A DNA stretch of 64,000 nucleotides from an uncultured Candidatus Saccharibacteria bacterium (GCA_964623775.1 CAZUVH010000002.1:1089-65088), one strand, 5' to 3'; shown: positions 11,863 to 37,529, counted from the stretch's first letter. Numbers and translations are program-made. The notes: generated from the sequence alone by a model not told the origin.

Positions 11863-11891
11863 ACTCGTGGCGCACGGGGTATACTCATTCA

Positions 11892-24400: not shown

Positions 24401-25495
24401 ATGAAAATCGGAATCGTCGGCCTCCCAAATGTTGGGAAATCAACGCTTTTTAACGCCCTTACTCGTAAGGGTGTCCTTGTAGCTAATTATCCATTTGCGA
24501 CCATCGACCCATCGGTTGGCGTTGTGGCGGTACCGGATTTTCGGCTCGATCGGCTCTCTGAAATGTCTCAAACGAAAAAGCGAGTGCCTGCAATCGTGGA
24601 ATTCGTGGATATCGCCGGATTGGTAAAGGGCGCTTCGGAAGGAGAGGGTCTGGGCAATCAATTCTTGCAGCACATTCGCGAAGTCGATGCGATCGCGGAA
24701 GTTGTCCGCATCTTTGATGACGAGGACGTGCATCATGTCGCCGGCTCAATCGATCCTCGCTACGATATCGAAATTATTGACCTCGAATTGGTGCAAGCTG
24801 ATTTGCAGTCGGCAGAAAAACGCCTCGATCGCGTGACGCGTGATTCGCGCGGTGGCGATAAGGATGCGCTTGCCGAAAAGGAGGTTCTCGAAAAGATCAT
24901 CCAGCCGCTCCGACAAGGAAAGGCGGCACGTACCGCGAACCTTACTGATGAGGAAAAAGCTATCGCGAAAGGTTTCCACTTCTTGACCATGAAGCCGATT
25001 CTCTACATCCTCAACCGCAAAAGCGGTGTCGTGAATATAGATGCTGAGAATGGCCAACGATGGCATGATTTGAAAAGTTTTCTAGACCAGAGCGACGCCA
25101 AGTACGTGGTCGTTGATGCGGGTGTAGAGAATGAGCTTGGCGATGTGCACGCTGATGAAAAAGCTGATTTCCGCCGCGAGCTTGGTGTCGCAGATGACGG
25201 CCTCGATGCACTCATCAAGGCTGGTTATGAGCTCCTTGATCTCATTTCCTTTTTCACGACAGGCGTAGAGGAGACACGCGCGTGGACGATTCATCGCGGC
25301 GACAAAGCACCGGATGCGGGTGCCGCGATCCACACGGATTTCAAAGATAAATTCATCCGGGCCGATACGATTCATTGGGACAAGCTGCTTGAAGTCGGTT
25401 CCTGGTCAAAGGCGCGAGAGAAGGGGATGGTCCGCTCGGAGGGTAAAGAATACGTCGTCCAAGACGGCGACGTCATGGAGTTTAAACACAGTTAA
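24401..25495 (+). CDS. ychF: ribosome-binding ATPase YchF (Obg-family GTPase)
   Basis: MKIGIVGLPNVGKSTLFNALT G1 motif, 364 aa, TGS-like C-terminus. Confidence 0.95.
   Translation: MKIGIVGLPNVGKSTLFNALTRKGVLVANYPFATIDPSVGVVAVPDFRLDRLSEMSQTKKRVPAIVEFVDIAGLVKGASEGEGLGNQFLQHIREVDAIAEVVRIFDDEDVHHVAGSIDPRYDIEIIDLELVQADLQSAEKRLDRVTRDSRGGDKDALAEKEVLEKIIQPLRQGKAARTANLTDEEKAIAKGFHFLTMKPILYILNRKSGVVNIDAENGQRWHDLKSFLDQSDAKYVVVDAGVENELGDVHADEKADFRRELGVADDGLDALIKAGYELLDLISFFTTGVEETRAWTIHRGDKAPDAGAAIHTDFKDKFIRADTIHWDKLLEVGSWSKAREKGMVRSEGKEYVVQDGDVMEFKHS
25405..25495 (+). repeat. direct repeat copy 1 (native 3' end of ychF)
   Basis: About 83-90 bp repeated at 25957..26045. Confidence 0.85.
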
Positions 25496-25502
25496 AAAAA
25501 CA

Positions 25503-25531
25503 GAGGCCTCCGTATGTATATACGGAGGCCA
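25503..25531. terminator. bidirectional intrinsic terminator shared by ychF and cassette gene
   Basis: gaggcctccgta-tgtata-tacggaggcc perfect hairpin flanked by A7 / T-rich runs. Confidence 0.65.
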
Positions 25532-25536
25532 TGGTG

Positions 25537-25881
25537 TTATTGGATCGGCACATGCTTGCCGTCGTCGATTCGCCAGGCTTTGTAGTGCCCATCGGCGTTG
25601 AGATCGTCGGCGTCAATGTAAATCGTCACGGACTCGAAATCATGGGCAACATACTTAGACGCTTTTTCTACCTTCTGATCTCGTCTTGCTAGAGCCATCT
25701 CCAGCGTGGCATGACGCTCGGGATCGATATGCCCACCCTTCCAAAGTAGGACTCGGTGGGCTGTCATGGTGCCCTTGGCAAACTCGATCATGCTGTTGAG
25801 CTGTTGCCCCCAGAATGTGTCTGCGATGTAGCTGCCATCAAGCTTCGTAACGACGAAGTATCGAGAATCAAGATCAAACAT
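25537..25881 (-). CDS. hypothetical soluble protein, cassette inserted after ychF
   Basis: 114-aa ORF; own promoter (TTGACT-16-TAAAAT on the minus strand) and terminator. Confidence 0.55.
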   Translation of the reverse strand: MFDLDSRYFVVTKLDGSYIADTFWGQQLNSMIEFAKGTMTAHRVLLWKGGHIDPERHATLEMALARRDQKVEKASKYVAHDFESVTIYIDADDLNADGHYKAWRIDDGKHVPIQ

Positions 25882-25914
25882 GCAGAGACCCTTTCGATGA
25901 GAAACTCTTTATGT

Positions 25915-25942
25915 ATTTTAGCACAAACATTCAATAAGTCAA
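25915..25942 (-). promoter_or_regulatory. sigma70-like promoter for cassette gene (TTGACT-16-TAAAAT)
   Basis: Reverse strand reads ttgact-tattgaatgtttgtgc-taaaat about 35 nt upstream of the ATG. Confidence 0.5.
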
Positions 25943-25956
25943 TTCATCGTCGTTGA

Positions 25957-26045
25957 CAAAAAAGCGAGAGAAGGGGATGGTCCGCTCGGAGGGTAAAGAA
26001 TACGTCGTCCAAGACGGCGATGTCATGGAGTTTAAGCATTCGTAG
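25957..26045 (+). repeat. direct repeat copy 2: displaced duplicate of ychF 3' end (last ~27 codons plus stop), remnant
   Basis: Encodes ...EKGMVRSEGKEYVVQDGDVMEFKHS*, identical in protein to the YchF C-terminus. Differences GAC/GAT, AAA/AAG, CAC/CAT, AGT/TCG, TAA/TAG are all synonymous. Confidence 0.85.
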
Positions 26046-26088
26046 TGTAGAATCCCGATAGTCAAAAATCAGCTGAAAGGACTGCCTG

Positions 26089-26757
26089 ATGCCCCGATCT
26101 GCGGATTATTGGATCAAGGAATATAGTAAACGCGATGCTCTGTGGATTCATGATGGAAATCCGAAGCGTCCTCACGCACTCCTTACCTCGGGGAACCACT
26201 CCAACGGCTTCTTCAATAGTAGACCGGTGATTTCCGACACCCATTTACTTACAGAGGCAGCCTTCTGTCTACTCGACCATTTCTATCAGCAGGCCAGTGG
26301 AAACGTGATCATCAATGCTGTCGTGGGTCCTCAGACAGGGGCTACAAAATTGGCCGAATTGATTTGCGACTTACTTGTGCTGGGGACGCGCTATGATTGC
26401 GTCCACGTTTCTCCCGCAAAATCCGAAGTAGACGGCAAGAAAGTAATGGTCTTCAGTGATACGGAAGAAATTGCTATGCGCGGTAGGGCTGCAATCCTTT
26501 GCGAAGATGTGCTGACGACGGGTGGCAGTGTGGATCTCACTGCAGCGGCGGTCGAAAAGGCGGGCGGCACCGTTTTGCCGTACGTGCTCGTGCTTGTGAA
26601 TCGATCAGGTCTCACCGAGGTCAACGGCAAAAAAATCGTTGCACTGATTGATCGAGCGATGCCCATCTGGGAGCCGCATGAGTGTCCGCTCTGCAAGCAG
26701 GGCTCGGAGGCGCTGCGCCCCAAAGACAATTGGGCGCGACTGAACGCAGATTATTAA
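26089..26757 (+). CDS. phosphoribosyltransferase-domain protein (orotate PRTase-like)
   Basis: PRPP-binding motif AILCEDVLTTGGSV. Confidence 0.6.
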   Translation: MPRSADYWIKEYSKRDALWIHDGNPKRPHALLTSGNHSNGFFNSRPVISDTHLLTEAAFCLLDHFYQQASGNVIINAVVGPQTGATKLAELICDLLVLGTRYDCVHVSPAKSEVDGKKVMVFSDTEEIAMRGRAAILCEDVLTTGGSVDLTAAAVEKAGGTVLPYVLVLVNRSGLTEVNGKKIVALIDRAMPIWEPHECPLCKQGSEALRPKDNWARLNADY

Positions 26758-26759
26758 AG

Positions 26760-26790
26760 TAAAGCGGCCCGAAATGGGCCGCTTTGTTTT
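26760..26790 (+). terminator. intrinsic terminator
   Basis: aagcggccc-gaaat-gggccgctt followed by tgttttta-tttt. Confidence 0.6.
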
Positions 26791-27203
26791 TATTTTCGCT
26801 CAAATTTTTGCATAAGGTCGCGCACAACGCCCCTATCTCTCTCAAGCTGATCGAGTTTGAGACGCTGTTCTTGAGACCACTGCACAAGATCCCTCCATGT
26901 CTTGCTGTCGACAAAGCCAATAGTTCCATTAGGACAGCCGTAACTGACCTCGTTGGAGCGATAGTCTACCAAGACTCGTCCACCATCTTCACCAATAGCT
27001 GTTAGCTCCGCGTGGCCCTCAGTGACACAGGTGTCACCATATTTCAGATTTTTGATGCCACCGGGGTTTCGCACAGCGATTGATATATTTGGCCTCGATG
27101 TGAGCTTTGTTCCTGGTGTGGCCACTCCCTGTTGCGAGTTCACCCCGTCTGTCACAAGGAATAAAAACAGGACGACTAGCAAGCCCAGCAAATATCTTTC
27201 CAT
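26790..27203 (-). CDS. secreted hypothetical protein
   Basis: Start assumed at the MERYLLGLLVVLFLFLVTDG signal peptide; the ORF extends to 27275. Confidence 0.45.
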   Translation of the reverse strand: MERYLLGLLVVLFLFLVTDGVNSQQGVATPGTKLTSRPNISIAVRNPGGIKNLKYGDTCVTEGHAELTAIGEDGGRVLVDYRSNEVSYGCPNGTIGFVDSKTWRDLVQWSQEQRLKLDQLERDRGVVRDLMQKFERK

Positions 27204-27307
27204 CGTAAAACCTCCGTGGATCCTGCTCTCAAGTGTATAGAAGCGGCGTATATACGCAAATGTCGCCAAAGACAAAAAGAGGACGCCCAGCGGGCGTCCT
27301 TTGATCT

Positions 27308-27841
27308 TTAGTCGTCGTCTTTCTCAATAGCAAGGCCCAGGCGCTTGTATGCATGTGCGCGAAGTTCTTTGTTCTGATCGTAGCCTTTGTAATCCGAGTG
27401 AGCACCGCGCATATTCGCCGGCAAATCTTTCATGCGATGAATGAATGCATCGGAAGCATACGGATGCTGGACGAGTAAAATATCGAGATACCACAGACCC
27501 TTTTGCTCAAGGTCGTGGATCACCCTCGCCGGAGTCTCGATATTGCTCGCGAGCGCTTGCCATACAGGCCACACCATCCCCTGGTCCTCAAACATATATT
27601 CGCGCGCAATTCGCTGAAGCGTCCTCGGGGTAGCCCGGGGCGATCTTGCGTCTACTGTGCGCAGGGCGGCAAGCATTGCGGCCCGCTTTTCAACGAGTGC
27701 CGCGCCCTTATGTCTCGGGTATTTCCAACCGTTTTCACCAGTAATCACTGTCATCGAGGCCTCCGTGTCTCGCATGGTTGTATCAAATTCTGAGGGAATA
27801 ACCAACCTGTCTTGAAGGGGCCAATATGTTATCCTATACAC
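27308..27841 (-). CDS. hypothetical protein
   Basis: 177-aa ORF; no motifs recognised. Confidence 0.4.
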   Translation of the reverse strand: MYRITYWPLQDRLVIPSEFDTTMRDTEASMTVITGENGWKYPRHKGAALVEKRAAMLAALRTVDARSPRATPRTLQRIAREYMFEDQGMVWPVWQALASNIETPARVIHDLEQKGLWYLDILLVQHPYASDAFIHRMKDLPANMRGAHSDYKGYDQNKELRAHAYKRLGLAIEKDDD

Positions 27842-28801
27842 ATGGACAAACCAAAAATAACACCCAAGGATTTCTTCCTCTGGGCGATGGCAATGATAGC
27901 CCTTTATTCAAGTATTTTCGCCCTTATCACGCTTCTCTTTGGATATATAGATTACGCGTTTCCCGATGCGCTCAATAGCTATATCGATCCCTACAGTAGC
28001 GGCATGCGCTACCAGATCGCGACGCTCCTCGTGATGTTCCCGCTCTTCCTCGTGGTCATGCGCTTTATCCGCAAGGACATCGTGCGCGATCCGACACGAA
28101 GCGATATCTGGATTCGTCGCTGGGCACTCTACCTCACCGTCTTCCTCGCTGGACTCACGATGGTCATCGATCTTATTGTGCTCGTTAATTCATTTCTTGG
28201 CGGGGAGATAACGACACGATTCGTCCTTAAAGTGCTCGTAGTCCTCGGCATCGCTGGGGTCGCATTTATGCACTTCCTTGCAGATATCTGGGGGTATTGG
28301 AGCCAATATCCTTCCCGTGCCCGCTCGGTAGGATGGGGAGTGGGCGCACTCGTACTGGTCGCTATCGGGGCAGGATTCTTCATCATGGGCTCTCCTTCGC
28401 AGATTCGTCTCTATCGCTTTGACGACACCAAGGTCTCTGACCTCCAAAATATCCAATGGCAAGTCGTTAATTATTGGCAGCAGAAGCAATCGCTCCCGAC
28501 GACTCTTGGCGATATCCAGGATCCGATCAGTGGGTATGTGATCCCGAAAGATCCGCAGACCGGAGAAATGTACAAATACGAGGCGACCGGTCCGATGACA
28601 TTCAAGCTCTGCGCGACGTTTAACGCAGAGACTCAGCTGAATTCGATGAATAACAACATGTATGCACGACCGATCGGGATCGAAGGGAAAGATCCGATGG
28701 GCGAGACGTGGCAGCATGGCGTAGGGGAGACCTGTTTCGAGCGCACAATCGATCCCGAGCGCTATCCTCCGTACAACAAGCAGCCCGCAAAAGTCATCTA
28801 A
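27842..28801 (+). CDS. integral membrane protein with C-terminal soluble domain (hypothetical)
   Basis: Start taken at the MDKPKITP Met; five to six TM helices followed by a soluble region. Confidence 0.5.
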   Translation: MDKPKITPKDFFLWAMAMIALYSSIFALITLLFGYIDYAFPDALNSYIDPYSSGMRYQIATLLVMFPLFLVVMRFIRKDIVRDPTRSDIWIRRWALYLTVFLAGLTMVIDLIVLVNSFLGGEITTRFVLKVLVVLGIAGVAFMHFLADIWGYWSQYPSRARSVGWGVGALVLVAIGAGFFIMGSPSQIRLYRFDDTKVSDLQNIQWQVVNYWQQKQSLPTTLGDIQDPISGYVIPKDPQTGEMYKYEATGPMTFKLCATFNAETQLNSMNNNMYARPIGIEGKDPMGETWQHGVGETCFERTIDPERYPPYNKQPAKVI

Positions 28802-28809
28802 AAGAAAAA

Positions 28810-28832
28810 GGACCCTGAAAAGGGTCCTTTCG
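28810..28832. terminator. bidirectional intrinsic terminator
   Basis: aggaccc-tgaaaa-gggtcct between convergent genes. Confidence 0.6.
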
Positions 28833-28834
28833 AA

Positions 28835-29104
28835 TCACAGTAGCCACAAACTATTGTAGCCATCGATTTGCCATCGTTGCCACCCGAGGACAATCCACTG
28901 CACAGTGTTAATCCCCATAAAAAAGGCACTCCAATACTGCTCAAGGGCAGCATCAGCCACCACCATAAGTATCATCCCAATTGTGACACCGACGGATGTG
29001 AGGAGCGCGGGCTTTGAATCACTGCGGTGAACTGTCGGGATCATTGTGATGATGAAAATAATATTTGCGACCATCATCGCGGCATCTTGCCAGGTGATCT
29101 CCAT
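28835..29104 (-). CDS. small three-TM membrane protein (hypothetical)
   Basis: 89 aa, three hydrophobic helices. Confidence 0.4.
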   Translation of the reverse strand: MEITWQDAAMMVANIIFIITMIPTVHRSDSKPALLTSVGVTIGMILMVVADAALEQYWSAFFMGINTVQWIVLGWQRWQIDGYNSLWLL

Positions 29105-29170
29105 TATCGAGGCCTCCTTTTACTGAAGAAAATAGTATCACCACTGAGGCTGATATGGTACCTTATTTCA

Positions 29171-32100
29171 ATGGAGGGTTACGATCATAAAAAGATAGAA
29201 AAGAAGAGGCGGGATGCGTGGAGGAAGTCTGATCTCTACAAAGCTGCAGATTCTGTGAAAGGGAAGGACAACTTCTTCCTTCTGACAGAATTTCCGTATC
29301 CATCGGGCAATCTCCACGTCGGTCACTGGTACGCCTTTGCGCTCCCCGACATCCTCGCGCGCTACATGCGCATGAAGGGCAAAAATGTCCTTTTCCCAAT
29401 GGGATTCGACGCTTTTGGTCTGCCCGCAGAAAATGCCGCGATCAAAAATAAATTGAATCCGCGCAGATGGACCGAAAAAAACATCGAGTACATGAAGCAG
29501 CAGATCGCATCGATGGGTGCATCGTTCGACTGGTCGCGAGAAGTGCAGACGATCGACCCGGCGTACTACAAATGGACGCAGTGGCAATTCCTCCAATTTT
29601 TCAAAAAGGGTTTGGTGTATCAGAAGGACACGGCTGTCAATTGGTGCCCCAAAGACAAGACAGTGCTCGCCAACGAGCAGGTGGTGGATGGTAAATGCGA
29701 ACGCTGCGATAGTGTCGTCGAGCAGAAGCTGATGCTCCAATGGAATATCAAAATCACCGAGTACGCCGATCGTCTGATCGATGATCTCGAGCCACTCGAT
29801 TGGCCGCAGGAGATTAAAGAGTCGCAAAAAAATTGGATCGGAAGAAGCGAGGGTGCAGAGATTGACTTCCCGCTTGTACTAGACGCCGATAAGAAAAAGT
29901 ACACGTACTTGTATTTACATGGGTACAAAAGCCAGGCGGACCGGCCGCGAAGCCATTGGTATCGCGCGGGGCTTGAAGCCCTCGGCCACACGGTTGTGAT
30001 TCCTCAGCTACCTGGCACCGAACACCCCATTGAGAGCGAACAAGTGGAGACAGCGCTCAGTGCGACCGAATGGAATGAGAATACTATTGTTGTAGGACAC
30101 AGTCTCGGAGCGATCGTGGCGATGAAGGCACTCCTCAAGTCAGGTAAAAAGATCGGCGGGCTAATATTGGTGGCCCCGGCATTAGACCCGGAATCGGCTG
30201 CGAAAGCACCGAGAACTGGCTTGAATAAGGAATTTAAAAAACCATTTCACGAGACTTTCGATTGGAATATTGATTACGAGAAAATAAAAACCCTCACTGA
30301 TCGTCGCGTCATACTCTCTGATCTTAAAGAGGATCATCGCGTGGAGTATCTGAGAGAACTTTCTAAGAAGATTGACGGTCAGCTCGTGGAGACTACTGCC
30401 GTAGAAGAGCATTTTACAGGGGATACGGAGCCCGACGTACTTATGTGGCTTCGACCAACCGCGCGGGTTTTCACCACACGCCCGGATACGCTCTTTGGCG
30501 CAACGTATCTCGTGCTGTCGCCCGAGCATCTCTGGGTGCAGCTCGCGCTCAAGCATAGGACGGTGCTCAAGAATAACGATGCTGTGCAGAAGTATGTCGA
30601 TGATGCAAAGAGGAAATCAGACATGGATCGTCAGACGAGTAAGGAGAAAACAGGGGTACAACTCGAGGGTGTGTACGCGATCAATCCAGCAAATGGCGAG
30701 AAGATCCCCCTGTATGTCGCGGATTATGTGCTCGCTACCTACGGCACGGGTGCGATCATGGCAGTGCCTGCCCACGACGAGCGCGACTACGAATTTGCGC
30801 AGAAATTCAATATTCCTATCACGCGTGTCGTTGACCCGGTGCTTACACAAACATCCGGCTCGTCTGCATTTAAAGAGGGGGAAGAATACCAAGACAGCGA
30901 TGGTGTTATCGCGGTTGTAAAGCATTGGGCTGAAGATAAGTATCTCGGCCTCAAGTGGAAGGGCACGGACTGGGTAACGCTTCTCACGGGCGGTATCGAC
31001 GACGGATACACCGCGGAACAAACTGTGCTCAAGGAAATTTCGGAAGAGACTGGCTACAAGAATGCAAAAGTAGCGCGGCAGCTCGCGACAATCCACAGCA
31101 AGTATTTTCATGTGCCGAAAGACAAAAACCGTTTCGGACATGCGCCGACGTTCTATGTGCAACTTACCGATGGCGAGCGTGAGGAAATTTCCGCCGAAGA
31201 GGAATCGAAGCACGAGCTTGTTTGGCTTACGCCAGCCGAGATGGCCTCGGCTCTTACGGCTGTGTCACACAGGGAAGCGCTCTCGATACTCAAAACCGGT
31301 GTCTATACCGGTGCGGGGATGCTCACTAATTCGGGGGAATTCGACGGCATGATGTCTGGTGAGGCCAAGGCAAAAATAACCGAGAAATTTGGAAGAAAAA
31401 AAACGACTTATAAACTGCGCGATTGGATTGTCTCGCGCCAGCGCTACTGGGGTGTGCCGATTCCGATCATCCACTGCGAGAAATGCGGTCCGGTAGCAGT
31501 GCCCGACAAGGACTTGCCGGTGAAATTGCCCGACGTCGAAGATTATCTCCCGACGGGCGACGGTAAATCGCCGCTCGCCAAGGTTGAATCTTTTGTGAAC
31601 GTTGAGTGTCCCAACTGTAAGAAGCCTGCGAAAAGGGAAACAGACACGCTCGATACGTTTGTCGATTCATCGTGGTATTTCCTGCGTTACACCGATCCGA
31701 AAAATAAAAAGGAGTTTGCCGATCGCGAAAGCCAGGATCATTGGATGCCTATAGATCTCTATTCTGGCGGCGCTGAGCACACCACCATGCACCTCCTCTA
31801 CAGTCGCTTCTGGCACAAAGCGCTCTACGATCTCGGACTCGTAAAAGATCCCGAGCCGTACAAAAAACGCATGAACAGGAGCCTCATCATGGGCCCCGAT
31901 GGTCAGAAAATGAGTAAATCGCGCGGCAATGTAATCGATCCTGACGAGGTCGTCGATCGACTCGGCGCCGATACGGTACGCATGTATCTCGCGTTTATCG
32001 GTCCGTACAATGAAGTATCCAACTATCCGTGGAATCCCGATGGCGTCGTGGGCGTGCGCCGATTCCTTGAGCGCATATTCCGACTGCAAGAAATCGTGCA

Positions 32101-32575
32101 AAAAGACGACGTGCCAGAGCTCAATGCCGCGCTTCACCGAACAATCAAAAAGGTGGGGGATGATATAGAGGTGCTGAAATTCAATACCGCAATCAGCTCT
32201 CTTATGATATTCCTCAACAAAGTCGAAAAGAAAAAATCGATCGGCGAGCGTCAGTGGGCGTTCCTTTTGAAGTTGCTCGAACCTTTTGCGCCATTCATTG
32301 CCGACGAGCTGTGGAGCCGATCCGGTCACAAGAGCGATCTTCTTGAGGAAGAGTGGCCGCAGTACGACGAAGGACAAATGCGCGAGCAAACAATCACGAT
32401 CGCGGTGCAGGTCAATGGCAAGACTCGCGCGCAGATCCAGGTACCCTCCGACGCCGATAAGGCGGCAGTGGAAACGCAGGCAAAAGAAGCCATAGCGACC
32501 CGCATCCTCGGCAAAAAGATCGAGAAGACCATTGTCGTCCCGAACCGTCTCGTCAATTTCGTCGTTGAGGCCTAG
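29171..32575 (+). CDS. leuS: leucyl-tRNA synthetase carrying two inserted hydrolase domains (alpha/beta serine hydrolase and Nudix)
   Basis: PYPSGNLHVGH (HIGH), TTRPDTLFGATY (CP1 editing domain), KMSKSRGN (KMSKS), C-terminal tRNA-binding domain. About 1134 aa versus ~800-860 for typical LeuRS. Confidence 0.9.
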   Translation: MEGYDHKKIEKKRRDAWRKSDLYKAADSVKGKDNFFLLTEFPYPSGNLHVGHWYAFALPDILARYMRMKGKNVLFPMGFDAFGLPAENAAIKNKLNPRRWTEKNIEYMKQQIASMGASFDWSREVQTIDPAYYKWTQWQFLQFFKKGLVYQKDTAVNWCPKDKTVLANEQVVDGKCERCDSVVEQKLMLQWNIKITEYADRLIDDLEPLDWPQEIKESQKNWIGRSEGAEIDFPLVLDADKKKYTYLYLHGYKSQADRPRSHWYRAGLEALGHTVVIPQLPGTEHPIESEQVETALSATEWNENTIVVGHSLGAIVAMKALLKSGKKIGGLILVAPALDPESAAKAPRTGLNKEFKKPFHETFDWNIDYEKIKTLTDRRVILSDLKEDHRVEYLRELSKKIDGQLVETTAVEEHFTGDTEPDVLMWLRPTARVFTTRPDTLFGATYLVLSPEHLWVQLALKHRTVLKNNDAVQKYVDDAKRKSDMDRQTSKEKTGVQLEGVYAINPANGEKIPLYVADYVLATYGTGAIMAVPAHDERDYEFAQKFNIPITRVVDPVLTQTSGSSAFKEGEEYQDSDGVIAVVKHWAEDKYLGLKWKGTDWVTLLTGGIDDGYTAEQTVLKEISEETGYKNAKVARQLATIHSKYFHVPKDKNRFGHAPTFYVQLTDGEREEISAEEESKHELVWLTPAEMASALTAVSHREALSILKTGVYTGAGMLTNSGEFDGMMSGEAKAKITEKFGRKKTTYKLRDWIVSRQRYWGVPIPIIHCEKCGPVAVPDKDLPVKLPDVEDYLPTGDGKSPLAKVESFVNVECPNCKKPAKRETDTLDTFVDSSWYFLRYTDPKNKKEFADRESQDHWMPIDLYSGGAEHTTMHLLYSRFWHKALYDLGLVKDPEPYKKRMNRSLIMGPDGQKMSKSRGNVIDPDEVVDRLGADTVRMYLAFIGPYNEVSNYPWNPDGVVGVRRFLERIFRLQEIVQKDDVPELNAALHRTIKKVGDDIEVLKFNTAISSLMIFLNKVEKKKSIGERQWAFLLKLLEPFAPFIADELWSRSGHKSDLLEEEWPQYDEGQMREQTITIAVQVNGKTRAQIQVPSDADKAAVETQAKEAIATRILGKKIEKTIVVPNRLVNFVVEA

Positions 32576-32620
32576 TTTTTTTGGTACAGCAAAGTGCTGG
32601 AGAAGTGGTAGGATTTTCGT

Positions 32621-32968
32621 ATGGATACACACAACAAGATTGAAGAGGGGATGGTCACGACGGCTTTTGGAATTGAGGGATATAGAGTGGTGAAAAATTT
32701 CGGGGTAACGCGCGGGATTATCGTCCGATCGCGATCGATTTTCGGGACCATTGCCGGCGGCCTGCAGACGATCGTAGGCGGCAATATCACGATGTTTACA
32801 TCACTTTGCGAGCGTACACGCAAAGACGCTTTTGAATTAATGCTCCAACATGCGGCCGAAATGGGCGCCAATGCGGTTATTGGCTTTCGATACGACGCGA
32901 CCGAGATTGGCGGGGGAGTGACGGAGGTACTCGCATACGGCACCGCCGTGCAGCTCGAGAAAATCTAA
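32621..32968 (+). CDS. YbjQ/UPF0145 family protein
   Basis: [24 protein letters not shown]...[10 protein letters not shown], the family hallmark. Confidence 0.7.
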
Positions 32969-33030
32969 GACTTTCCCACGGAAAAGAGATAGTGTAAAGT
33001 GCCTAGAGAAAAAAATGAAAGGAGAGTCAA

Positions 33031-33675
33031 ATGAGACGGCTCGTCTTCATTTGGGCGGTCTTTTGGTGCGTTATTGGCGCCTCTACTGCGGCCTTGGCGC
33101 AAGGAGACAGGAGGCCCGTTGTCGTGTTTATCGGCTCGTCGTCGATAGCGCAATGGCACAATCTACAGAAGGATTTCCCGTCCTATCGGACGGTCAATCT
33201 GGGAGTCAACGGTAGCGCAGAGCTCCCTGGCGGCCAGGTCTTGCCGCGAATGATCGAAATGATCGACACGGATGTGGTCCCGCTTCGGCCGGCAGCGGTC
33301 GTTGTGTACGGAGGTGAAAACGATCTCTGGGGCAACGACGATGTGTCCAAGAGGAAATCACCAAAAGAGGTAGTGGAGCTCCTGAGTGCGTTTAGAAAAA
33401 GGCTTCACGCGCATATGCCCAATGCACGTATCGTGTTTATCTCGATCAAACCGAGCCCTTCACGATGGAAAATTGAGAACGATCTTATCGTTACAAATTT
33501 TCTGATGAAGCTGATGGTCCTGAAGCACCCGAATCTCCGCTTTGTCGATATCTATATCCCGATGCTCAACGATAGAGGCGAGCCTGATTCGAGCTTCTAT
33601 TCTCCGGACAGTCTGCACATGAGTGAAGCCGGCTATACGCTCTGGAAAAATGCGGTCACCAAAGCTCTCAAATAA
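33031..33675 (+). CDS. secreted SGNH/GDSL-family hydrolase
   Basis: Signal peptide; block I FIGSSS, block III GGEND, block V DSLHMS. Confidence 0.65.
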   Translation: MRRLVFIWAVFWCVIGASTAALAQGDRRPVVVFIGSSSIAQWHNLQKDFPSYRTVNLGVNGSAELPGGQVLPRMIEMIDTDVVPLRPAAVVVYGGENDLWGNDDVSKRKSPKEVVELLSAFRKRLHAHMPNARIVFISIKPSPSRWKIENDLIVTNFLMKLMVLKHPNLRFVDIYIPMLNDRGEPDSSFYSPDSLHMSEAGYTLWKNAVTKALK

Positions 33676-33681
33676 AACTAA

Positions 33682-33712
33682 CCCTTACCTCAAACGTGAG
33701 GGTTTTTGTTTT
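33682..33712 (+). terminator. intrinsic terminator
   Basis: cccttac-ctcaaac-gtgaggg followed by tttttgtttt. Confidence 0.6.
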
Positions 33713-33730
33713 GCTTACCGTTTTTCTAAC

Positions 33731-33805
33731 GAGGATAGTGAGGGAAATGAATACGTGTTTTCATTTCCGAGCGACGCAGTCAGCAAGAGGTTTACCTCTT
33801 GAATA
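33731..33805 (+). ncRNA. repeated structured element, copy B
   Basis: gaggatagtgagggaaatgaa-tacgtgtt-ttcatttcc-gagcgacgcagt-cagcaagagg-ttta-cctcttg; shares conserved linker and hairpin architecture with copy A. Confidence 0.45.
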
Positions 33806-35297
33806 CTTTTGCGCCATCAGGTGAGTCTTCGAGTGTGTAGCCGAGATCGGTGATTTCATTGCGTATGGCATCGGCGCGTGTCCAATCCTTTTCCGCGCGC
33901 GCCTTTTCACGACGCTCCACCAATTCTCTTATTTCAATAGGTAGCTCACTTTGTGTTATTTCGACAGTGGAGTATGGCTGTGCCAATTTCTTTGCCAGCT
34001 CATCAGGCTCTCTCAGATTGAGACCAAGCACACGGTCGAAATCGAGAATGGTCGCAAGAAGGTCTGCGGGCTCGATACTCTCGTCCTTCGTCATTTCCCA
34101 CAGTACGGCGAGGGCGCCCGGCGTATCGAGATCATCCTGAATCTTGCCCATGAATCTCGCGTGCCACCTGTGTACGATCGTTCCGCCCGTCTGTGATCGA
34201 AGCTCCTCGCAGATCGCAATAAGCTTGCTGTAGGCTGTCTGGGCAGCGGTGAGCGCCTCCCAGGTAAAATTCATCGGCGTGCGGTAGTGCGCTCCTAGAA
34301 AGAGGTAACGCAATGAGAGCGGATGATATCCGCGCTCGGTGATATCAGAGAGATAGACTACGGTGCCCTCTGATTTGGCGATCTTGCCACCATCGATCTG
34401 GATATGATTGCGGTGAAGCCAGAATCTGGAAAAGGGCTTTTTTCCCGAGGACGCCTCCGACTGTGCGATCTCGTTGTTGTGGTGTATCGCGATGTGTTCG
34501 ATACCGCCCGTATGGATGTCGAGCTGCTCACCGAGCGTCGCCCTCGCCATCGCCGAGCACTCGATATGCCACCCGGGGAAGCCGCGACCCCACGGCGATT
34601 CCCAGCCCATTTTTGCTGCGCCGCGCTTGGCCTCAGGCGTGAATTTCCAAAGAATAAAATCTTGAGGATTGCGCTTGGAGCTCTTTACATCGACACGCGC
34701 GCCTTCTTTCTGACCTTCAAGATTGATATTGCCCAAGCACCCGTACGCAGGGAAACGGGAGATGTCGTAGTAGATGCCATCTTCTCCCTTGTATGCATAG
34801 CCCTTTTCCTCAAGTGTGCGGATGATCGCAATCTGCGCATCGATGTATTCGCTCGCGCGTGGAAAACTGACAGAATCCACTTCCACATTGAGTGTGCGGA
34901 TATCCTCAAGAAAGATATTGGTATATTTCTCCGCCAAGACTTTCATGTTGGCCATTGAGGGGCGCAACTTCTCTCGTTTGAGACCTTTGAGCATCTTGTC
35001 CTCGCCCTCATCTGCGTCAGAGGTGAGATGACCGAAATCGGTGATGTTGATCGTCTGTTTTACGGCAAGACCTGAGTACTCAAGCGTGCGACGTAGGATA
35101 TCGGTGAATACAAACATCGAGAGATTCCCGATATGCTGGCGACCATAGACGGTGGGGCCGCAATTGTACATGCGCACATATTTCATGCCGGGCGCAAGCG
35201 AAAATTCCTGCTTTTCTTTCGCCAGAGTGTTGTAAAAACGAGGCATCAGGGCCTTCGAGGGGGCATTCCTATTGAAGAGAGAATCAAGAAATCCCAT
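33792..35297 (-). CDS. cysS: cysteinyl-tRNA synthetase
   Basis: MYNCGPTVYGRQHIGN (HIGH region), GWHIECSAM zinc-binding motif, KIAKSEG (KMSKS-like); 501 aa. Confidence 0.9.
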   Translation of the reverse strand: MGFLDSLFNRNAPSKALMPRFYNTLAKEKQEFSLAPGMKYVRMYNCGPTVYGRQHIGNLSMFVFTDILRRTLEYSGLAVKQTINITDFGHLTSDADEGEDKMLKGLKREKLRPSMANMKVLAEKYTNIFLEDIRTLNVEVDSVSFPRASEYIDAQIAIIRTLEEKGYAYKGEDGIYYDISRFPAYGCLGNINLEGQKEGARVDVKSSKRNPQDFILWKFTPEAKRGAAKMGWESPWGRGFPGWHIECSAMARATLGEQLDIHTGGIEHIAIHHNNEIAQSEASSGKKPFSRFWLHRNHIQIDGGKIAKSEGTVVYLSDITERGYHPLSLRYLFLGAHYRTPMNFTWEALTAAQTAYSKLIAICEELRSQTGGTIVHRWHARFMGKIQDDLDTPGALAVLWEMTKDESIEPADLLATILDFDRVLGLNLREPDELAKKLAQPYSTVEITQSELPIEIRELVERREKARAEKDWTRADAIRNEITDLGYTLEDSPDGAKVFKR

Positions 35298-35315
35298 ACG
35301 TGGAGAGGTTGTATA

Positions 35316-36221
35316 TTATAGCCATTTCTTGTGTTTGAAGAACCACAACATGGAGGCTCCCGTAGCGACTACCGCTGTAAGGACAAACCAAAAGCCAGCA
35401 TGCTTCAGTGGATTGTCATCCATGTGCAGGTCGGAAATCGCTACGAAGAGGGCGAGAGGGAAGGTGAGGAGGGCCATAATGGTCAATACACGCATGGTCT
35501 CATTTTGCTTGGTTGTGAGGAGCGAATTGTTGGTCTCGCGCAGCTCGTGAAGTGTCTCGGTGTTGCGCATAATGTGATTGTGGACACGATAATATTCGTG
35601 AGAAATCGCTTGTGCGTACGAGCGGAATTCATCTCCAAAAAAGCGCGGGCCCTCGGTCTCGAAATCCTGGAGCACCTCGCGATGGGGCTCTATAGTCTGC
35701 CTCAGATTCAATAGGTCGCGTGCATTGCGAGAGATGGCCTCAACCATCGCGACTTCGAGGCCGGCAAAAATGTCACTTTCGATACGCGCGAGCTCCTGTC
35801 GCACAAAATCCACCTCGTGCTCGACGGCTTTGTACATTTTTTTCAAAATGAAAAAAAGGAGATGCCCCGCGTGCTCGCCGACCGGATTTTTCTGTAGCGT
35901 CGAATTTACCTCGATGATCTTTGAAAATTTATGAAGCGCGTCAATGGTCTCGTAATGAGTGGTTATGAGAAAATCCTTACCAAATACAAAATCCACCTCC
36001 TGCTCTTTTTTGTTGTGTGAATGCCGGAGGGCAGGGAAGTGCATAATCATATAGAAATAATCACCGTGTCTCTCGACACGCGGCTTTGTAGAGGGGAGCA
36101 TCAGCTCCTCCGTGATCATTCTGTTTAATCCGTATTCGAGCGCTACACTTGCGACCTCATCGCGAGAAGGATTCTCGAGATCGATCCAGACGATACCTCC
36201 GTGAGAAAATCGTGAAATCAT
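35316..36221 (-). CDS. CorA-like divalent cation transporter
   Basis: N-terminal VWIDLENPSRDE...ITEELML CorA signature; two C-terminal TM helices, loop motif altered (no GMN). Start taken at the MISRF Met; the ORF track extends to a TTG at 36422. Confidence 0.6.
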   Translation of the reverse strand: MISRFSHGGIVWIDLENPSRDEVASVALEYGLNRMITEELMLPSTKPRVERHGDYFYMIMHFPALRHSHNKKEQEVDFVFGKDFLITTHYETIDALHKFSKIIEVNSTLQKNPVGEHAGHLLFFILKKMYKAVEHEVDFVRQELARIESDIFAGLEVAMVEAISRNARDLLNLRQTIEPHREVLQDFETEGPRFFGDEFRSYAQAISHEYYRVHNHIMRNTETLHELRETNNSLLTTKQNETMRVLTIMALLTFPLALFVAISDLHMDDNPLKHAGFWFVLTAVVATGASMLWFFKHKKWL

Positions 36222-36245
36222 TCGTTTTATTATAACGCGTATAAC

Positions 36246-37529
36246 GTGCGGGCAGACCCCGCATGTGAGATAATCGAATCCATGTTCCCTGAGCAGGTCA
36301 AGAGTACATTTCAAATGCGCAGCGCGATTGTCGCCGGAATCCTCATGCTCGCGTGTGGCTTTGCGGTCGGTGTGTTTGTCGGCCAGCGTTCCGCTACCGG
36401 AATCGCTTTTGCAGAGCGGCAAGCGCCGGAAGGAGTCGACATGTCTCCCGTATGGAAAGCGTGGCAGGTGATCGATGAGAAATTCGTCCCCGCTGCCGTT
36501 GCCACTTCCACCAAGATCTCCACCTCGACTGCTGAGATCAATGAAGAACGCGTCTACGGGATGATCCAGGGGCTCGCAGGATCACTCAATGATCCGTACA
36601 CATTCTTCCTGCCGCCGGTCGAGAACGAAATGTTCTCATCCGATATGAGCGGAAGCTTCGAGGGTGTGGGCATGGAAATTGCGATCAAAAACAACGTCCT
36701 TACGGTCGTGTCTCCTCTCAAGGGATCGCCCGCAGAGGCTGCGGGCATACAAAGTGGTGATTTGATACTTAAGATCGACGGCATCGATACAAAAGGCATG
36801 GATGTAAGTTCTGCAGTGCAGAAGATCCGAGGAAAAGGCGGGACGTACGTAAAGCTCAATCTGATGCGCGAAGGATGGGGTGAGCCGAAAGATTTCTCTG
36901 TCAAGCGCGATGTCATCAATGTACCGATTGTCACTACCAAAAAGATGGAAGGCGGCGTATTTGTGATCGAAGTGCGCTCGTTTACATCTTCTTCGCCACA
37001 TCTTTTTCGTGAGGCGCTGCGCGAATTCATAGAGTCTGGCAATACGAAACTCGCGCTCGATTTGCGTGGCAATCCGGGCGGCTACCTCGACGCCGCTGTC
37101 GCTATGGCGAGCTGGTTTTTGCCGTCGGGCGCGGTGATCGTGAGCGAGGATTATGCAGGACACGAACCGACGGTCGCACACCGCTCGCTCGGCTACGATA
37201 TTTTCAATAAAAATCTCAGGATGGTCGTCCTCGTCGATAGGGGCAGTGCCTCGGCCTCGGAAATTCTCGCCGATGCGCTGCGCCACTACGGTATCGCAAA
37301 GCTCGTTGGTACCAACACATTTGGTAAGGGCTCTGTGCAGGAGCTCGTCGACATAACGCCCACGACGGCTCTCAAGATTACCGTCGCGAGGTGGCTCGGG
37401 CCGGATGGGGAACAGATCCCGCTCACCGGTATCGCTCCGGATGTCGAGGTCAAAATGGATGAAGAGGACGTAAAAGAAAAACGTGATCCGCAGATGGATA
37501 AGGCACTCGAAGTTTTGAAGAGTCTCTAA
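36246..37529 (+). CDS. S41-family C-terminal processing peptidase with PDZ domain
   Basis: [23 protein letters not shown]; catalytic Ser in [15 protein letters not shown] and Lys in TFGKGSVQ. Confidence 0.85.

What the first reader, a model, noticed from the sequence alone, without database searches (positions are those of the whole stretch)
29171..32575. Leucyl-tRNA synthetase with two inserted hydrolase domains: RBBP9/YdeN-like serine hydrolase before the CP1 editing domain and a Nudix domain after it
All canonical LeuRS landmarks are present (HIGH HVGH, editing TTRPDTLFGATY, KMSKS), but the protein is ~1134 aa.

Insertion 1 (nt ~29871-30466): between the conserved NWIGRSEGAEIDF and VFTTRPDT blocks, where E. 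coli LeuRS has only ~10 residues, there are ~195 aa. They contain YLYLHGYKSQ...SHW...VVGHSLGAIVA...LILVAPA, a nucleophile-elbow pattern matching the small alpha/beta serine hydrolase family PF06821 (YdeN/RBBP9).

Insertion 2 (nt ~30840-31300): between the end of CP1 (DYEFAQKFNIPI) and SGEFDGM, ~120 extra aa include KWKGTDWVTLLTGGIDDGYTAEQTVLKEISEETGY, a Nudix box (Gx5Ex7[RK]EvxEExGy with Lys for Arg).

Both are in frame with no stops, so they are genuine internal domains, not inteins (no Cys/Ser junction, no HNH/LAGLIDADG) and not frameshifted neighbours. Standalone Nudix (39835, 43155) and alpha/beta hydrolases (11892) also occur in the window.

Functional inference: aminoacyl-tRNA is an ester and aaRS make aminoacyl-adenylate and Ap4A, so an esterase-fold domain and a Nudix pyrophosphohydrolase placed around the editing site could be extra proofreading or adenylate/Ap4A-clearing modules. 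I am not aware of this architecture for LeuRS.
Basis: partly seen in the sequence, partly recalled or inferred. Interest (0 to 1): 0.85.

Follow-up and report, generated by a model that had tools for sequence, protein, structure and literature searches.

The report
LeuRS carrying two passenger hydrolase domains
This is a real, intact leucyl-tRNA synthetase from an uncultured CPR (Patescibacteria) bacterium that has a complete serine-hydrolase domain and a Nudix domain looped into its editing domain, one example of an apparently undescribed habit of these bacteria of inserting small hydrolases into LeuRS and other essential proteins.

Summary
Observation confirmed. ORF 29171-32575 (+) encodes a 1134-aa bacterial-type LeuRS (TIGR00396, 970 bits) with intact HIGH, KMSKS and CP1 editing motifs. 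It carries two in-frame inserted domains. Residues 236-432 form a YdeN/RBBP9-type serine hydrolase (profile vs PDB 1uxo, E=4.5e-22) with its triad conserved in the family. Residues 556-712 form a Nudix fold (Pfam 40.9 bits; AF2 pLDDT 94).

- Both inserts lie inside the Pfam-defined CP1 domain.
- Insert 2 is about 155 aa.
- The window's Nudix box lacks the first Glu (E613Y) as well as carrying R621K, whereas 103 of 111 relatives are canonical.

The architecture is common: more than 100 clusters, named Kaiserbacteria/Parcubacteria. The same hydrolase sits at five or more other LeuRS sites and in ValRS, AlaRS, TsaD, an Fmt-like protein, SecA and UvrA. Other LeuRSs carry Ham1, HAD or IS200-transposase domains. 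Inserts are absent or exchanged in close relatives.

Best reading: autonomous passenger enzymes tethered to a permissive essential scaffold. An extra proofreading or Ap4A-clearing role is not excluded. I found no published description.

The parts
29171..32575 (+). leuS gene: 1134-aa bacterial-type leucyl-tRNA synthetase with two inserted domains (stop codon included). The mechanical ORF starts at GTG 29027, but the conserved N-terminus supports ATG 29171.
29315..29326 (+). HIGH signature (HVGH, aa 49-52)
   Evidence: GNLHVGH present in 117/120 homologues; coordinates checked
29840..29881 (+). N-terminal beta-strand of CP1 (GRSEGAEIDFPLVL, aa 224-237) that leads into insert 1
   Evidence: AF2 strand 224-237; alignment with insert-free P0105
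29876..30466 (+). Insert 1: YdeN/RBBP9-type alpha/beta serine hydrolase domain (aa 236-432), looped into the first hairpin of CP1 ('site A', P0105 residues 233-255)
   Evidence: PF06821 33.5 bits, PF12697 34 bits; profile vs 1uxo E=4.5e-22 and RBBP9 about 1e-18; pLDDT >90
29918..29923 (+). HG (His250-Gly251), putative oxyanion-hole motif of the hydrolase
   Evidence: H250 in 119/119, G251 in 115/119
30095..30109 (+). Nucleophile elbow GHSLG with catalytic Ser311 (nt 30101-30103)
   Evidence: S311 in 119/119; Ser kept in all embedded copies at every site and host; aligns to RBBP9 Ser75
30329..30331 (+). Glu387, the triad acid (aligns to RBBP9 Asp138). Asp384 (nt 30320-30322) is an additional acid that is near-invariant in the close homologue family (118/119).
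   Evidence: position 387 is Asp in 91 and Glu in 28 of 119; alignment to RBBP9
30410..30412 (+). His414, triad histidine (aligns to RBBP9 His165)
   Evidence: invariant
30467..30835 (+). CP1 editing-domain core (aa 433-555) with the T-rich motif TTRPDT (nt 30473-30490) and AHDERD (nt 30770-30787)
   Evidence: PF13603 183.6 bits; editing residues kept in all 120 homologues
30836..31306 (+). Insert 2: Nudix-fold domain (aa 556-712), looped into a C-terminal loop of CP1 ('site B', P0105 residues about 379-388)
   Evidence: PF00293 40.9 bits; AF2 pLDDT 94.3; Foldseek TM 0.66-0.81 to Nudix hydrolases
30989..31057 (+). Nudix box, non-canonical in this gene: GGIDDGYTAEQTVLKEISEETGY (Gx5E Glu->Tyr613; Arg->Lys621; Glu622, Glu625 and Glu626 retained)
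31307..32572 (+). Rest of LeuRS: end of CP1, CxxC pairs (nt 31475-31486 and 31607-31618), KMSKS (nt 31907-31921), anticodon-binding domain (nt 32126-32464) and C-terminal domain

Best explanation
The gene encodes a working bacterial-type LeuRS. Two complete, independently folding enzyme domains are looped out of surface hairpins of its CP1 editing domain.

Shown:
- The synthetic motifs (HIGH, KMSKS) and the CP1 editing residues are intact.
- Insert 1 is a YdeN/RBBP9-type hydrolase whose Ser311 / Glu387 / His414 triad is conserved across the family.
- Insert 2 has a Nudix fold. In most relatives its Nudix box is canonical. In this gene and its nearest Nudix relatives the box has lost the first Glu, and the Arg is substituted in most of them.

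Inferred:
- Both modules act as autonomous 'passenger' enzymes tethered to LeuRS.
- The hydrolase most likely cleaves an aminoacyl or N-terminal residue from a substrate with a free alpha-amine, as RBBP9 does.
- The Nudix module, where its box is canonical, most likely acts as a nucleoside-polyphosphate (ApnA/RppH-like) hydrolase. In this gene it is probably attenuated, or serves only to bind a ligand.
- LeuRS serves as a permissive, constitutively expressed essential scaffold. The modules are not obligatory steps in the aminoacylation or editing cycle.
- The CP1-plus-inserts block behaves as a cassette that is gained, lost and exchanged between lineages.

My confidence that the anatomy is right is about 0.95. 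My confidence in the passenger mechanism is about 0.45.
For: Anatomy.

Catalytic conservation:
- In the close homologues, Ser311 is present in 119/119, position 387 is Asp or Glu in 119/119, and His414 is invariant.
- In the wider set of embedded copies at other sites and hosts, Ser and His are invariant and position 387 is acidic in nearly all.
- The Nudix box is canonical in 103/111.

Evidence for a passenger or scaffold arrangement:
- The hydrolase is found at five or more different LeuRS positions (P0105 coordinates about 233-255, 380, 449, 498, 657), sometimes in tandem.
- It is also found in ValRS, AlaRS, TsaD, an Fmt-like protein, SecA, UvrA and an IMPase fusion.
- The same LeuRS sites hold unrelated domains: Ham1, HAD and an IS200 Y1 transposase.
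- Nudix occupies three or more LeuRS sites.
- The insert-free P0105 is the sister of the window protein, with 84% core identity, and its contig has a similar gene order around leuS (neighbour families not on record).
- Nudix-less forms are scattered at six or more tree positions.
- P0029 and P0099 have about 100% identical flanks but a swapped CP1/insert block.
- The inserts evolve much faster than the core. Nudix identity is 27-49% where core identity is 69-83%.
- The embedded domains show no shift towards a basic, RNA-binding charge.
- The canonical CP1 editing site is retained in all 120 sequences.
Against: - LeuRS is greatly over-represented as host. It accounts for more than 50 of about 60 embedded representatives and five or more separate sites. 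This could reflect functional coupling and not only structural tolerance.
- Most other hosts also handle tRNA or aminoacyl-tRNA (ValRS, AlaRS, TsaD, Fmt-like).
- RBBP9 chemistry (aminoacyl substrate with a free alpha-amine; 'amide, ester or thioester') fits aminoacyl-tRNA.
- The Nudix domain's nearest relatives include Ap4A hydrolases, and aaRSs make Ap4A (from my own knowledge).
- I could not read the model's coordinates, so the distance between Ser311 and the CP1 pocket is unknown.
- No biochemical data exist.
Confidence: 0.45

Rival explanations
1. Extra quality-control modules. The YdeN-type hydrolase would act as an additional cis or tethered-trans deacylase, hydrolysing mischarged aminoacyl-tRNA-Leu or non-cognate aminoacyl-adenylate that CP1 handles poorly. 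The Nudix domain would clear Ap4A or related dinucleoside polyphosphates made by the synthetase, or act on the 5' end of the tRNA.
For: - RBBP9 requires a free alpha-amine. [quoted passage not shown]
- Hosts are dominated by editing-type synthetases: LeuRS many times over, ValRS twice, AlaRS once.
- The triad is strictly conserved.
- The best solved sequence relative of the Nudix profile is Aquifex Ap4A hydrolase 3i7u. RppH, ApnA hydrolases and MutT1 are prominent among the structural neighbours.
- A Tyr or Phe is conserved 16-17 residues after the box. From memory, this is an ApnA-hydrolase marker.
Against: - The insertion site varies across the LeuRS surface, so there is no fixed geometry relative to the CCA end.
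- The same domain occurs in SecA, UvrA and an IMPase fusion.
- Ham1, HAD and a transposase domain occupy the same LeuRS sites.
- CP1 editing residues are all intact, so no gap in editing is evident.
- The inserts are absent from close relatives, and the Nudix box has decayed in 8/111, including this gene.
- The RBBP9 alpha-amine anchor Glu108 is not clearly conserved.
- All Nudix subfamily matches fall far below the curated cutoffs, and the structural E-values are flat.
- There is no basic surface shift.
Confidence: 0.3
2. Neutral or selfish insertions. The domains would be cargo of a mobile, cassette-like process that lands in tolerant loops of essential genes. They would persist because excision is rarely clean, and they would give the cell no benefit.
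For: - Many hosts and many sites.
- An IS200-like Y1 transposase domain lies in frame at the same LeuRS site.
- Tandem duplications occur (P0177).
- Presence/absence varies among close relatives and there is a mosaic CP1 block.
- The inserts diverge fast.
Against: - The hydrolase triad and oxyanion motif are essentially invariant across more than 119 sequences whose insert identity falls to about 30%.
- The Nudix box is canonical in 103/111.
- That pattern indicates purifying selection on catalysis. No mobility machinery or terminal repeats were identified.
Confidence: 0.12
3. Substrate supply. The hydrolase would be an aminopeptidase that frees N-terminal hydrophobic residues (Leu, or Val and Ala in the other synthetases) from scavenged peptides, feeding the attached synthetase in an amino-acid-auxotrophic CPR cell.
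For: - RBBP9 is an aminopeptidase for hydrophobic and aromatic residues.
- The synthetase hosts are LeuRS, ValRS and AlaRS.
- CPR bacteria have reduced biosynthesis (from my own knowledge).
Against: - Tethering gives little kinetic benefit for a freely diffusing amino acid unless there is a channel.
- The hosts SecA, UvrA and TsaD do not fit.
- The idea does not explain the Nudix, Ham1 or HAD inserts.
Confidence: 0.08
4. Artefact or intein: a frameshifted neighbouring gene, a metagenome assembly chimera, or a protein-splicing element.
For: None positive. The P0029/P0099 mosaic shows that chimeric assemblies should be kept in mind for individual database entries.
Against: - There is one uninterrupted frame.
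- The identical protein appears in an independent assembly.
- More than 100 homologues share the same junctions.
- The AF2 model is confident.
- G+C content is uniform across the gene.
- Pfam gives no Hint, LAGLIDADG or HNH match, and no intein-like junction residues are present.
Confidence: 0.02

Closest known systems
Canonical bacterial LeuRS (Thermus thermophilus 2bte/1h3n; E. coli 4aq7)
   Same: Same overall fold (Foldseek E=1.4e-76, TM 0.70 on the target). HIGH, KMSKS, the CP1 T-rich motif and the conserved Asp residues, the anticodon-binding domain and the C-terminal domain are all present.
   Different: About 350 extra residues form two foreign enzyme domains inside CP1. None of the 50 listed solved LeuRS chains exceeds 876 residues.
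Bacillus subtilis YdeN (PDB 1uxo) and human RBBP9 (2qs9, 7oex), Pfam PF06821
   Same: A minimal alpha/beta hydrolase of about 185 aa with an HG motif, a GxSxG elbow and a Ser/Asp/His triad in the same order. The profile E-values are 4.5e-22 and about 1e-18.
   Different: It is embedded in a loop of another enzyme and is not free-standing. The triad acid is Glu in this gene. An extra acid (Asp384) is near-invariant in the close homologue family, and a conserved C-terminal EPDVLMWLRP return segment is present. The RBBP9 Glu108 alpha-amine anchor is not clearly conserved. The substrate is unknown.
Nudix ApnA hydrolases and RppH (Aquifex Ap4A hydrolase 3i7u; E. coli RppH; M. tuberculosis Rv2985)
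   Same: Nudix fold. The family consensus carries a full GX5EX7REUXEEXGU box. These are the best sequence and structure neighbours.
   Different: Scores are far below the NCBIfam cutoffs and the structural E-values are flat, so no subfamily can be assigned. The window's copy has Tyr in place of the first Glu and Lys in place of Arg. The domain is embedded in CP1.
NCBIfam NF040702 'isoleucine--tRNA ligase, N-acetyltransferase domain-containing' (ileS_w_GNAT)
   Same: A curated precedent for a class Ia synthetase that carries an unrelated enzyme domain. It was listed among the NCBIfam hits.
   Different: A different synthetase and a different passenger domain. I did not examine its insertion site or its taxonomy.
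Free-standing trans-editing factors (AlaX, YbaK/ProXp, Dtd) and adenylate/Ap4A hydrolases (HINT, ApaH)
   Same: These are functional analogues of what the rival 'extra proofreading' model proposes (from my own knowledge).
   Different: Their folds are unrelated. Pfam found none of these families in the protein.
Mycoplasma mobile LeuRS lacking CP1 (3ziu)
   Same: It shows that the CP1 region of LeuRS is naturally modular and can be dispensed with (it appears as hit 50).
   Different: That case is a loss of a module. This case is a gain of foreign modules.

Membership tests
Bacterial-type leucyl-tRNA synthetase (TIGR00396) | Whole-protein score above the curated equivalog cutoff | tested here: met
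   970.2 bits against a cutoff of 548.4, matched in 3 stretches interrupted by the inserts
Bacterial-type leucyl-tRNA synthetase (TIGR00396) | Class I signatures HIGH and KMSKS | tested here: met
   HVGH at aa 49-52 and KMSKS at aa 913-917; conserved in 117-120 of 120 homologues
Bacterial-type leucyl-tRNA synthetase (TIGR00396) | CP1 editing domain with the T-rich motif and the conserved Asp residues | tested here: met
   PF13603 183.6 bits; TTRPDT and AHDERD present; T436, R437, D439, T440, D536 and D539 invariant
Bacterial-type leucyl-tRNA synthetase (TIGR00396) | Leucylation and editing activity | not testable with these tools
   Requires biochemistry
YdeN/RBBP9 serine hydrolase (Pfam PF06821) | Score above Pfam's gathering threshold, and similarity to solved family members | tested here: met
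   33.5 bits against 22; family profile vs 1uxo E=4.5e-22 and vs RBBP9 9e-19
YdeN/RBBP9 serine hydrolase (Pfam PF06821) | Ser-Asp-His triad in the positions of RBBP9 Ser75/Asp138/His165 | tested here: met
   Ser311, Glu387 (Asp in 91 and Glu in 28 of 119) and His414. The window has Glu as the acid.
YdeN/RBBP9 serine hydrolase (Pfam PF06821) | Alpha-amine anchor equivalent to RBBP9 Glu108 | tested here: inconclusive
   The aligned column (position 356) is variable (Pro, Lys or Glu). The neighbouring Asp344 is present in 92/119 but is Ala in the window. The alignment in this loop is uncertain.
YdeN/RBBP9 serine hydrolase (Pfam PF06821) | Aminopeptidase or aminoacyl-hydrolase activity | not testable with these tools
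   Known only for RBBP9
Nudix hydrolase (Pfam PF00293) | Score above the gathering threshold, and a Nudix fold | tested here: met
   40.9 bits against 21.1; AF2 pLDDT 94.3; Foldseek TM 0.66-0.81 and prob 1.00 to many Nudix structures
Nudix hydrolase (Pfam PF00293) | Canonical Nudix box GX5EX7REUXEEXGU | tested here: not met
   The window has GGIDDGYTAEQTVLKEISEETGY, with Tyr613 for Glu and Lys621 for Arg. Glu622, Glu625 and Glu626 are kept. The family consensus is canonical in 103/111. This copy is therefore a member by fold, but its catalytic competence is uncertain.
ApnA-hydrolase / RppH subgroup of Nudix | Score above the curated NCBIfam cutoffs for RppH or a related equivalog | tested here: not met
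   15/15 family members hit the RppH models, but at E=1e-7 to 1e-9 and about 20-35 bits against cutoffs of 116-241 bits. This is a resemblance only.
Intein | Hint domain, a homing-endonuclease domain, and junctions with a nucleophile and His-Asn | tested here: not met
   Pfam gives no such hit at E<=1. The junctions read ...FPLVL|DADKK... and ...RPTAR|VFTT....

The most novel reading that the evidence does not exclude
The YdeN/RBBP9-type serine hydrolase is a previously unrecognised aminoacyl-ester (aminoacyl-tRNA or aminoacyl-adenylate) hydrolase. On this reading it is a new class of editing module that CPR bacteria have recruited repeatedly and independently into editing-type synthetases (LeuRS at five or more sites, ValRS, AlaRS). 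The co-inserted Nudix, Ham1 and HAD domains would remove nucleotide by-products of the same reaction. This would also give the first physiological function for the YdeN family.
Probability: 0.2. Interest if true: 0.9.

Novelty: new variant of a known kind. Interest (0 to 1): 0.65.

Why it matters
LeuRS and its CP1 editing domain are among the best-studied enzymes of translation and are a drug target (benzoxaboroles). A natural LeuRS that tolerates two foreign catalytic domains inside CP1, conserved across a whole clade, is unexpected. The wider pattern found here is that the same small hydrolases are inserted at many sites of LeuRS and into other essential proteins of CPR bacteria. This points either to a new kind of tethered quality-control enzyme or to a general way in which genome-reduced bacteria pack housekeeping enzymes into essential scaffolds. 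Both readings can be tested with recombinant protein. The mapped permissive sites would also be useful for engineering LeuRS fusions.

Tried and rejected
1. The alignment-based scan of GTDB genomes failed because no stretch was conserved enough. The single-sequence scan returned only 9 loci, so no quantitative taxonomic survey was possible.

2. I first took Asp384 to be the triad acid. The alignment to RBBP9 shows that Asp138 maps to position 387, so Asp384 is an extra residue that is near-invariant in the close homologue family.

3. I tested whether the inserts were copied from the window's free-standing Nudix genes (39835, 43155) or its alpha/beta hydrolase gene (11727). Only motif-level matches exist (38% over 42 aa; 27% over 67 aa), so this is rejected.

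4. The NJ tree of hydrolase domains is star-like with long branches. It is compatible with repeated acquisition (the site B, D and F domains group with free-standing proteins) but proves nothing.

5. The 97% 'core identity' between P0099 and P0029 looked like a very recent Nudix loss. It is in fact a mosaic with a swapped central block. The 'repeated loss' inference should therefore be read as presence/absence polymorphism.

6. Neither sequence nor structure could assign the Nudix domain to a subfamily, because the E-values are flat.

7. The net-charge comparison showed no RNA-binding signature. This is weak evidence.

8. Rfam found no T-box, tRNA or any other RNA family in the window.

9. Eight literature searches found no description of the architecture. 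Subscription-only papers were not searched.

10. I could not read the AF2 model's coordinates or its PAE, so I could not measure the distance between Ser311 or the Nudix box and the CP1 pocket.

Full report
**1. The observation**

The window holds one long ORF on the + strand, 29027-32575. Homologues begin at a conserved MxxYDHKKIEKKW, so the start is ATG 29171 and the product is 1134 aa. G+C content is even across the gene.

NCBIfam's bacterial LeuRS equivalog TIGR00396 scores 970 bits against a cutoff of 548, in three stretches. Pfam finds tRNA-synt_1, the LeuRS editing domain PF13603 and Anticodon_1. It also finds NUDIX (40.9 bits against a gathering score of 21.1; aa 582-701) and Ser_hydrolase PF06821 (33.5 against 22; aa 247-347), together with generic alpha/beta-hydrolase models. 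No intein, HNH or LAGLIDADG family appears at E<=1.

I checked HVGH, GHSLG, TTRPDT, AHDERD, the Nudix box and KMSKS at nucleotide level.

The identical protein is encoded on an independently assembled Logan contig with the same neighbouring genes.

**2. Anatomy**

Alignment with a close relative that lacks both inserts (P0105, 817 aa) defines insert 1 as about aa 236-432 and insert 2 as about aa 556-712. P0105 has about 20 and about 10 residues at those places.

Pfam's editing-domain model is matched at positions 23-148 between the two inserts. In insert-free or differently arranged LeuRSs the same model runs from position 1 to 185. Both inserts are therefore inside CP1. Insert 1 sits in the first beta-hairpin, just before TTRPDT. 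Insert 2 sits in a loop after the DYEFA helix.

A full-length AlphaFold2 model built from 76 homologues is confident (mean pLDDT 88.2, pTM 0.73). Both inserts form compact domains with pLDDT above 90. The core superposes on bacterial LeuRS structures (T. thermophilus 2bte, E=1.4e-76). None of the 50 listed solved LeuRS chains is longer than 876 residues.

**3. Insert 1**

A profile of 15 insert-1 sequences hits B. subtilis YdeN (1uxo) at E=4.5e-22 and human RBBP9 at about 1e-18. All other alpha/beta hydrolases score at 5e-5 or worse.

Across the 119 insert-bearing relatives, the HG motif (His250), Ser311 of GHSLG and His414 are invariant. The RBBP9 alignment places its catalytic Asp138 at position 387, which is Asp in 91 and Glu in 28 of 119. 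The window has Glu. Asp384, which I first took for the triad acid, is an additional residue. It is near-invariant in the close homologue family (118/119) and more variable in the wider site-A set (26/35).

RBBP9 is the only biochemically defined relative. It is an aminopeptidase that needs a free alpha-amine. [quoted passage not shown] The column that aligns with its alpha-amine anchor, Glu108, is not conserved here.

**4. Insert 2**

Folded alone, it gives a Nudix fold (pLDDT 94.3). TM-scores to Nudix hydrolases are 0.66-0.81.

The family consensus has a canonical GX5EX7REUXEEXGU box in 103 of 111 sequences. The window's copy reads GGIDDGYTAEQTVLKEISEETGY. The first Glu is Tyr613 and the Arg is Lys621, while Glu622, Glu625 and Glu626 are kept.

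Its nearest Nudix relatives (P0006, P0010, P0117, P0050) also lack the first Glu, and three of the four have also replaced the Arg. All still keep the fold and the downstream Glu677, His681 and Trp685. This sub-lineage probably has an attenuated or re-purposed Nudix domain.

Subfamily assignment fails. The best sequence hit in the PDB is Aquifex Ap4A hydrolase (E=2e-9). NCBIfam RppH models are hit weakly by 15/15 members, far below their cutoffs. Structural neighbours (Ap4A and Ap6A hydrolases, RppH, MutT1, Rv2985) have flat E-values. An aromatic residue, mostly Tyr, is conserved 16-17 residues after the box. From memory this is a marker of ApnA hydrolases, so I treat it as a lead and not a test.

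**5. The LeuRS itself**

In all 120 relatives, the T-rich motif TTRxDT, the AHDxRD motif with both Asp residues, and KMSKS are kept. HIGH is kept in 117 or more. The inserts add to the synthetic and editing sites and do not replace them.

**6. Distribution**

The search of the 5.8-billion-protein collection lists 120 clusters at 58-100% identity. Of these, 111 carry both inserts, 8 carry the hydrolase only (about 975 aa) and 1 carries neither. Where the sources give a name, it is Candidatus Kaiserbacteria, Paceibacterota, Parcubacteria, Minisyncoccota or Patescibacteria. NCBI labels the proteins 'alpha/beta fold hydrolase', 'NUDIX domain-containing protein' or 'class I tRNA ligase family protein'.

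The inserts evolve much faster than the core. Nudix identity is 27-49% and hydrolase identity 28-68% where the core is 69-83% identical, and the two inserts are discordant with each other.

**7. A wider phenomenon**

I searched insert 1 against 1.84 billion 50%-identity representatives. This gave 438 hits, a mixture of free-standing proteins of about 180-190 aa and embedded copies.

Mapping the large hits onto P0105 and scanning them with Pfam shows the following.
- The hydrolase lies at five or more different LeuRS positions: about 233-255 as in this gene, about 380, about 449 (within a CxxC hairpin), about 498 and about 657. In one case (P0177) it is in tandem.
- Nudix lies at about 208, about 290 and about 380.
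- Other domains occupy the same LeuRS sites: Ham1/ITPase-like (P0238), HAD (P0126) and an IS200-type Y1 transposase domain (P0156).
- The same hydrolase is embedded in ValRS (P0163, P0201), AlaRS (P0173), TsaD (P0206), a formyltransferase (P0222), SecA (P0152) and UvrA (P0180, P0271). It is fused to an inositol monophosphatase (P0256) and to a Nudix domain (P0240).

Ser and His of the triad are kept in every embedded copy, and the acid at position 387 in nearly all. The variants that carry a name are from Parcubacteria and Peregrinibacteria.

An NJ tree of the domains is poorly resolved. It places the site B, D and F copies among free-standing proteins and not with the site-A clade, which is compatible with repeated acquisition.

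**8. Gain, loss and exchange**

The leuS locus is syntenic (YchF - DUF5671 - leuS - cysS - corA) in the window and in the Nudix-less P0025 genome. The short P0105 contig shows a similar gene order, but the families of its neighbours are not on record. These genes look like orthologues.

On a core-only tree, the insert-free P0105 is the sister of the window protein (84% identity) inside the insert-bearing clade. Nudix-less forms sit at six or more scattered positions.

P0029 and P0099 have about 100% identical flanks, but their central block (about aa 230-715) is only 46-71% identical. It carries a different hydrolase allele and no Nudix. The CP1-plus-inserts block has therefore been exchanged, or one contig is chimeric.

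Either way, LeuRS genes that are otherwise intact exist without the inserts. The Nudix module in particular appears to be facultative.

**9. Interpretation**

Shown:
- A bona fide LeuRS.
- Two foreign, well-folded enzyme domains inside CP1.
- Strong purifying selection on the hydrolase triad.
- A Nudix box that is canonical in the family but degenerate in this gene.
- Modular gain, loss and exchange.
- Many insertion sites and several hosts.

Inferred (about 0.45): the domains are autonomous passenger enzymes. One is an aminoacyl or N-terminal hydrolase. The other is a nucleoside-polyphosphate hydrolase. LeuRS serves them as a permissive, constitutively expressed essential scaffold.

Four points keep it alive:
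- LeuRS is heavily over-represented as host.
- Most other hosts are linked to tRNA.
- RBBP9 chemistry fits an aminoacyl ester.
- The Nudix domain resembles ApnA hydrolases.

Several points count against it:
- The insertion geometry varies.
- Non-tRNA hosts exist.
- Unrelated domains, including a transposase domain, use the same sites.
- CP1 is intact.
- The inserts are absent from close relatives whose LeuRS motifs are intact.
- There is no shift towards a basic surface.

A purely neutral or selfish insertion (about 0.12) is hard to reconcile with the invariant triad.

**10. Novelty**

The sequences are in public databases under generic names. Eight full-text searches found no description of a LeuRS with hydrolase or Nudix inserts, or of the wider pattern. 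Subscription-only literature was not covered.

A related precedent is NCBIfam's 'ileS_w_GNAT' family.

I class this as a new variant of a known kind: a multidomain synthetase with foreign catalytic inserts. My interest score is 0.65. It would rise sharply if the hydrolase proves to be a new editing module.

Noticed in passing
P0156 (998-aa partial LeuRS, Candidatus Parcubacteria, MCX6741383.1), aa 269-374: An IS200-like Y1 transposase domain (PF01797, 52.8 bits) lies in frame at the same CP1 hairpin ('site A') that holds the hydrolase in the window's gene. The same protein has the hydrolase at about P0105 residue 449. This may hint at how domains get into LeuRS loops.
   Followed up: partly
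P0238 aa 255-326; P0126 aa 428-583: Other LeuRSs carry a Ham1/ITPase-like domain at site A (with the hydrolase moved to site B) or a HAD-family hydrolase at about P0105 residue 497. JGI names the latter 'leucyl-tRNA synthetase/phosphoglycolate phosphatase-like HAD superfamily hydrolase'.
   Followed up: partly
P0163, P0201 (ValRS); P0173 (AlaRS); P0206 (TsaD); P0222 (formyltransferase); P0152 (SecA); P0180/P0271 (UvrA); P0256 (IMPase fusion): The same YdeN-type hydrolase domain is inserted into, or fused to, several other large housekeeping proteins of uncultured bacteria.
   Followed up: partly
P0029 vs P0099: Two LeuRSs have about 100% identical N- and C-terminal parts but a divergent central CP1/insert block (46-71% identity, a different hydrolase allele, Nudix absent). 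This is either cassette recombination or a metagenome assembly chimera.
   Followed up: partly
P0177 aa 17-411; P0122 and P0124: Some LeuRSs have two hydrolase domains in tandem at site A, or one or two extra Nudix domains at about P0105 residue 208 in addition to the hydrolase.
   Followed up: no
L011:52-1064: In the genome whose LeuRS lacks the Nudix insert, free-standing Ham1-like and Nudix genes sit back to back between the ATP synthase gamma and beta subunit genes.
   Followed up: no
window 24401-36422: The gene order YchF GTPase - (PRTase, small ORFs) - DUF5671 membrane protein - leuS - YbjQ - GDSL lipase - cysS (minus strand) - corA (minus strand) has its core (YchF, DUF5671, leuS, cysS, corA) conserved in the related genome L011.
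   Followed up: partly
window 39835-40305 and 43155-43646: Two free-standing Nudix genes (PF00293, 86.5 and 56.9 bits). The first has a canonical Nudix box. Neither is a close paralogue of the LeuRS insert.
   Followed up: yes
window 11727-12758: A DUF1749/S33-type alpha/beta hydrolase that also gives a weak PF06821 match (25 bits). It is only distantly related to insert 1 (27% identity over 67 aa).
   Followed up: yes
window 1-64000: No Rfam family reaches its gathering score anywhere in the 64 kb. There is no tRNA, and no T-box or other leader upstream of leuS or cysS.
   Followed up: partly
window 29027-29170: The mechanical ORF extends 48 codons upstream to a GTG. Homologue N-termini indicate that these codons are not translated.
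   Followed up: partly
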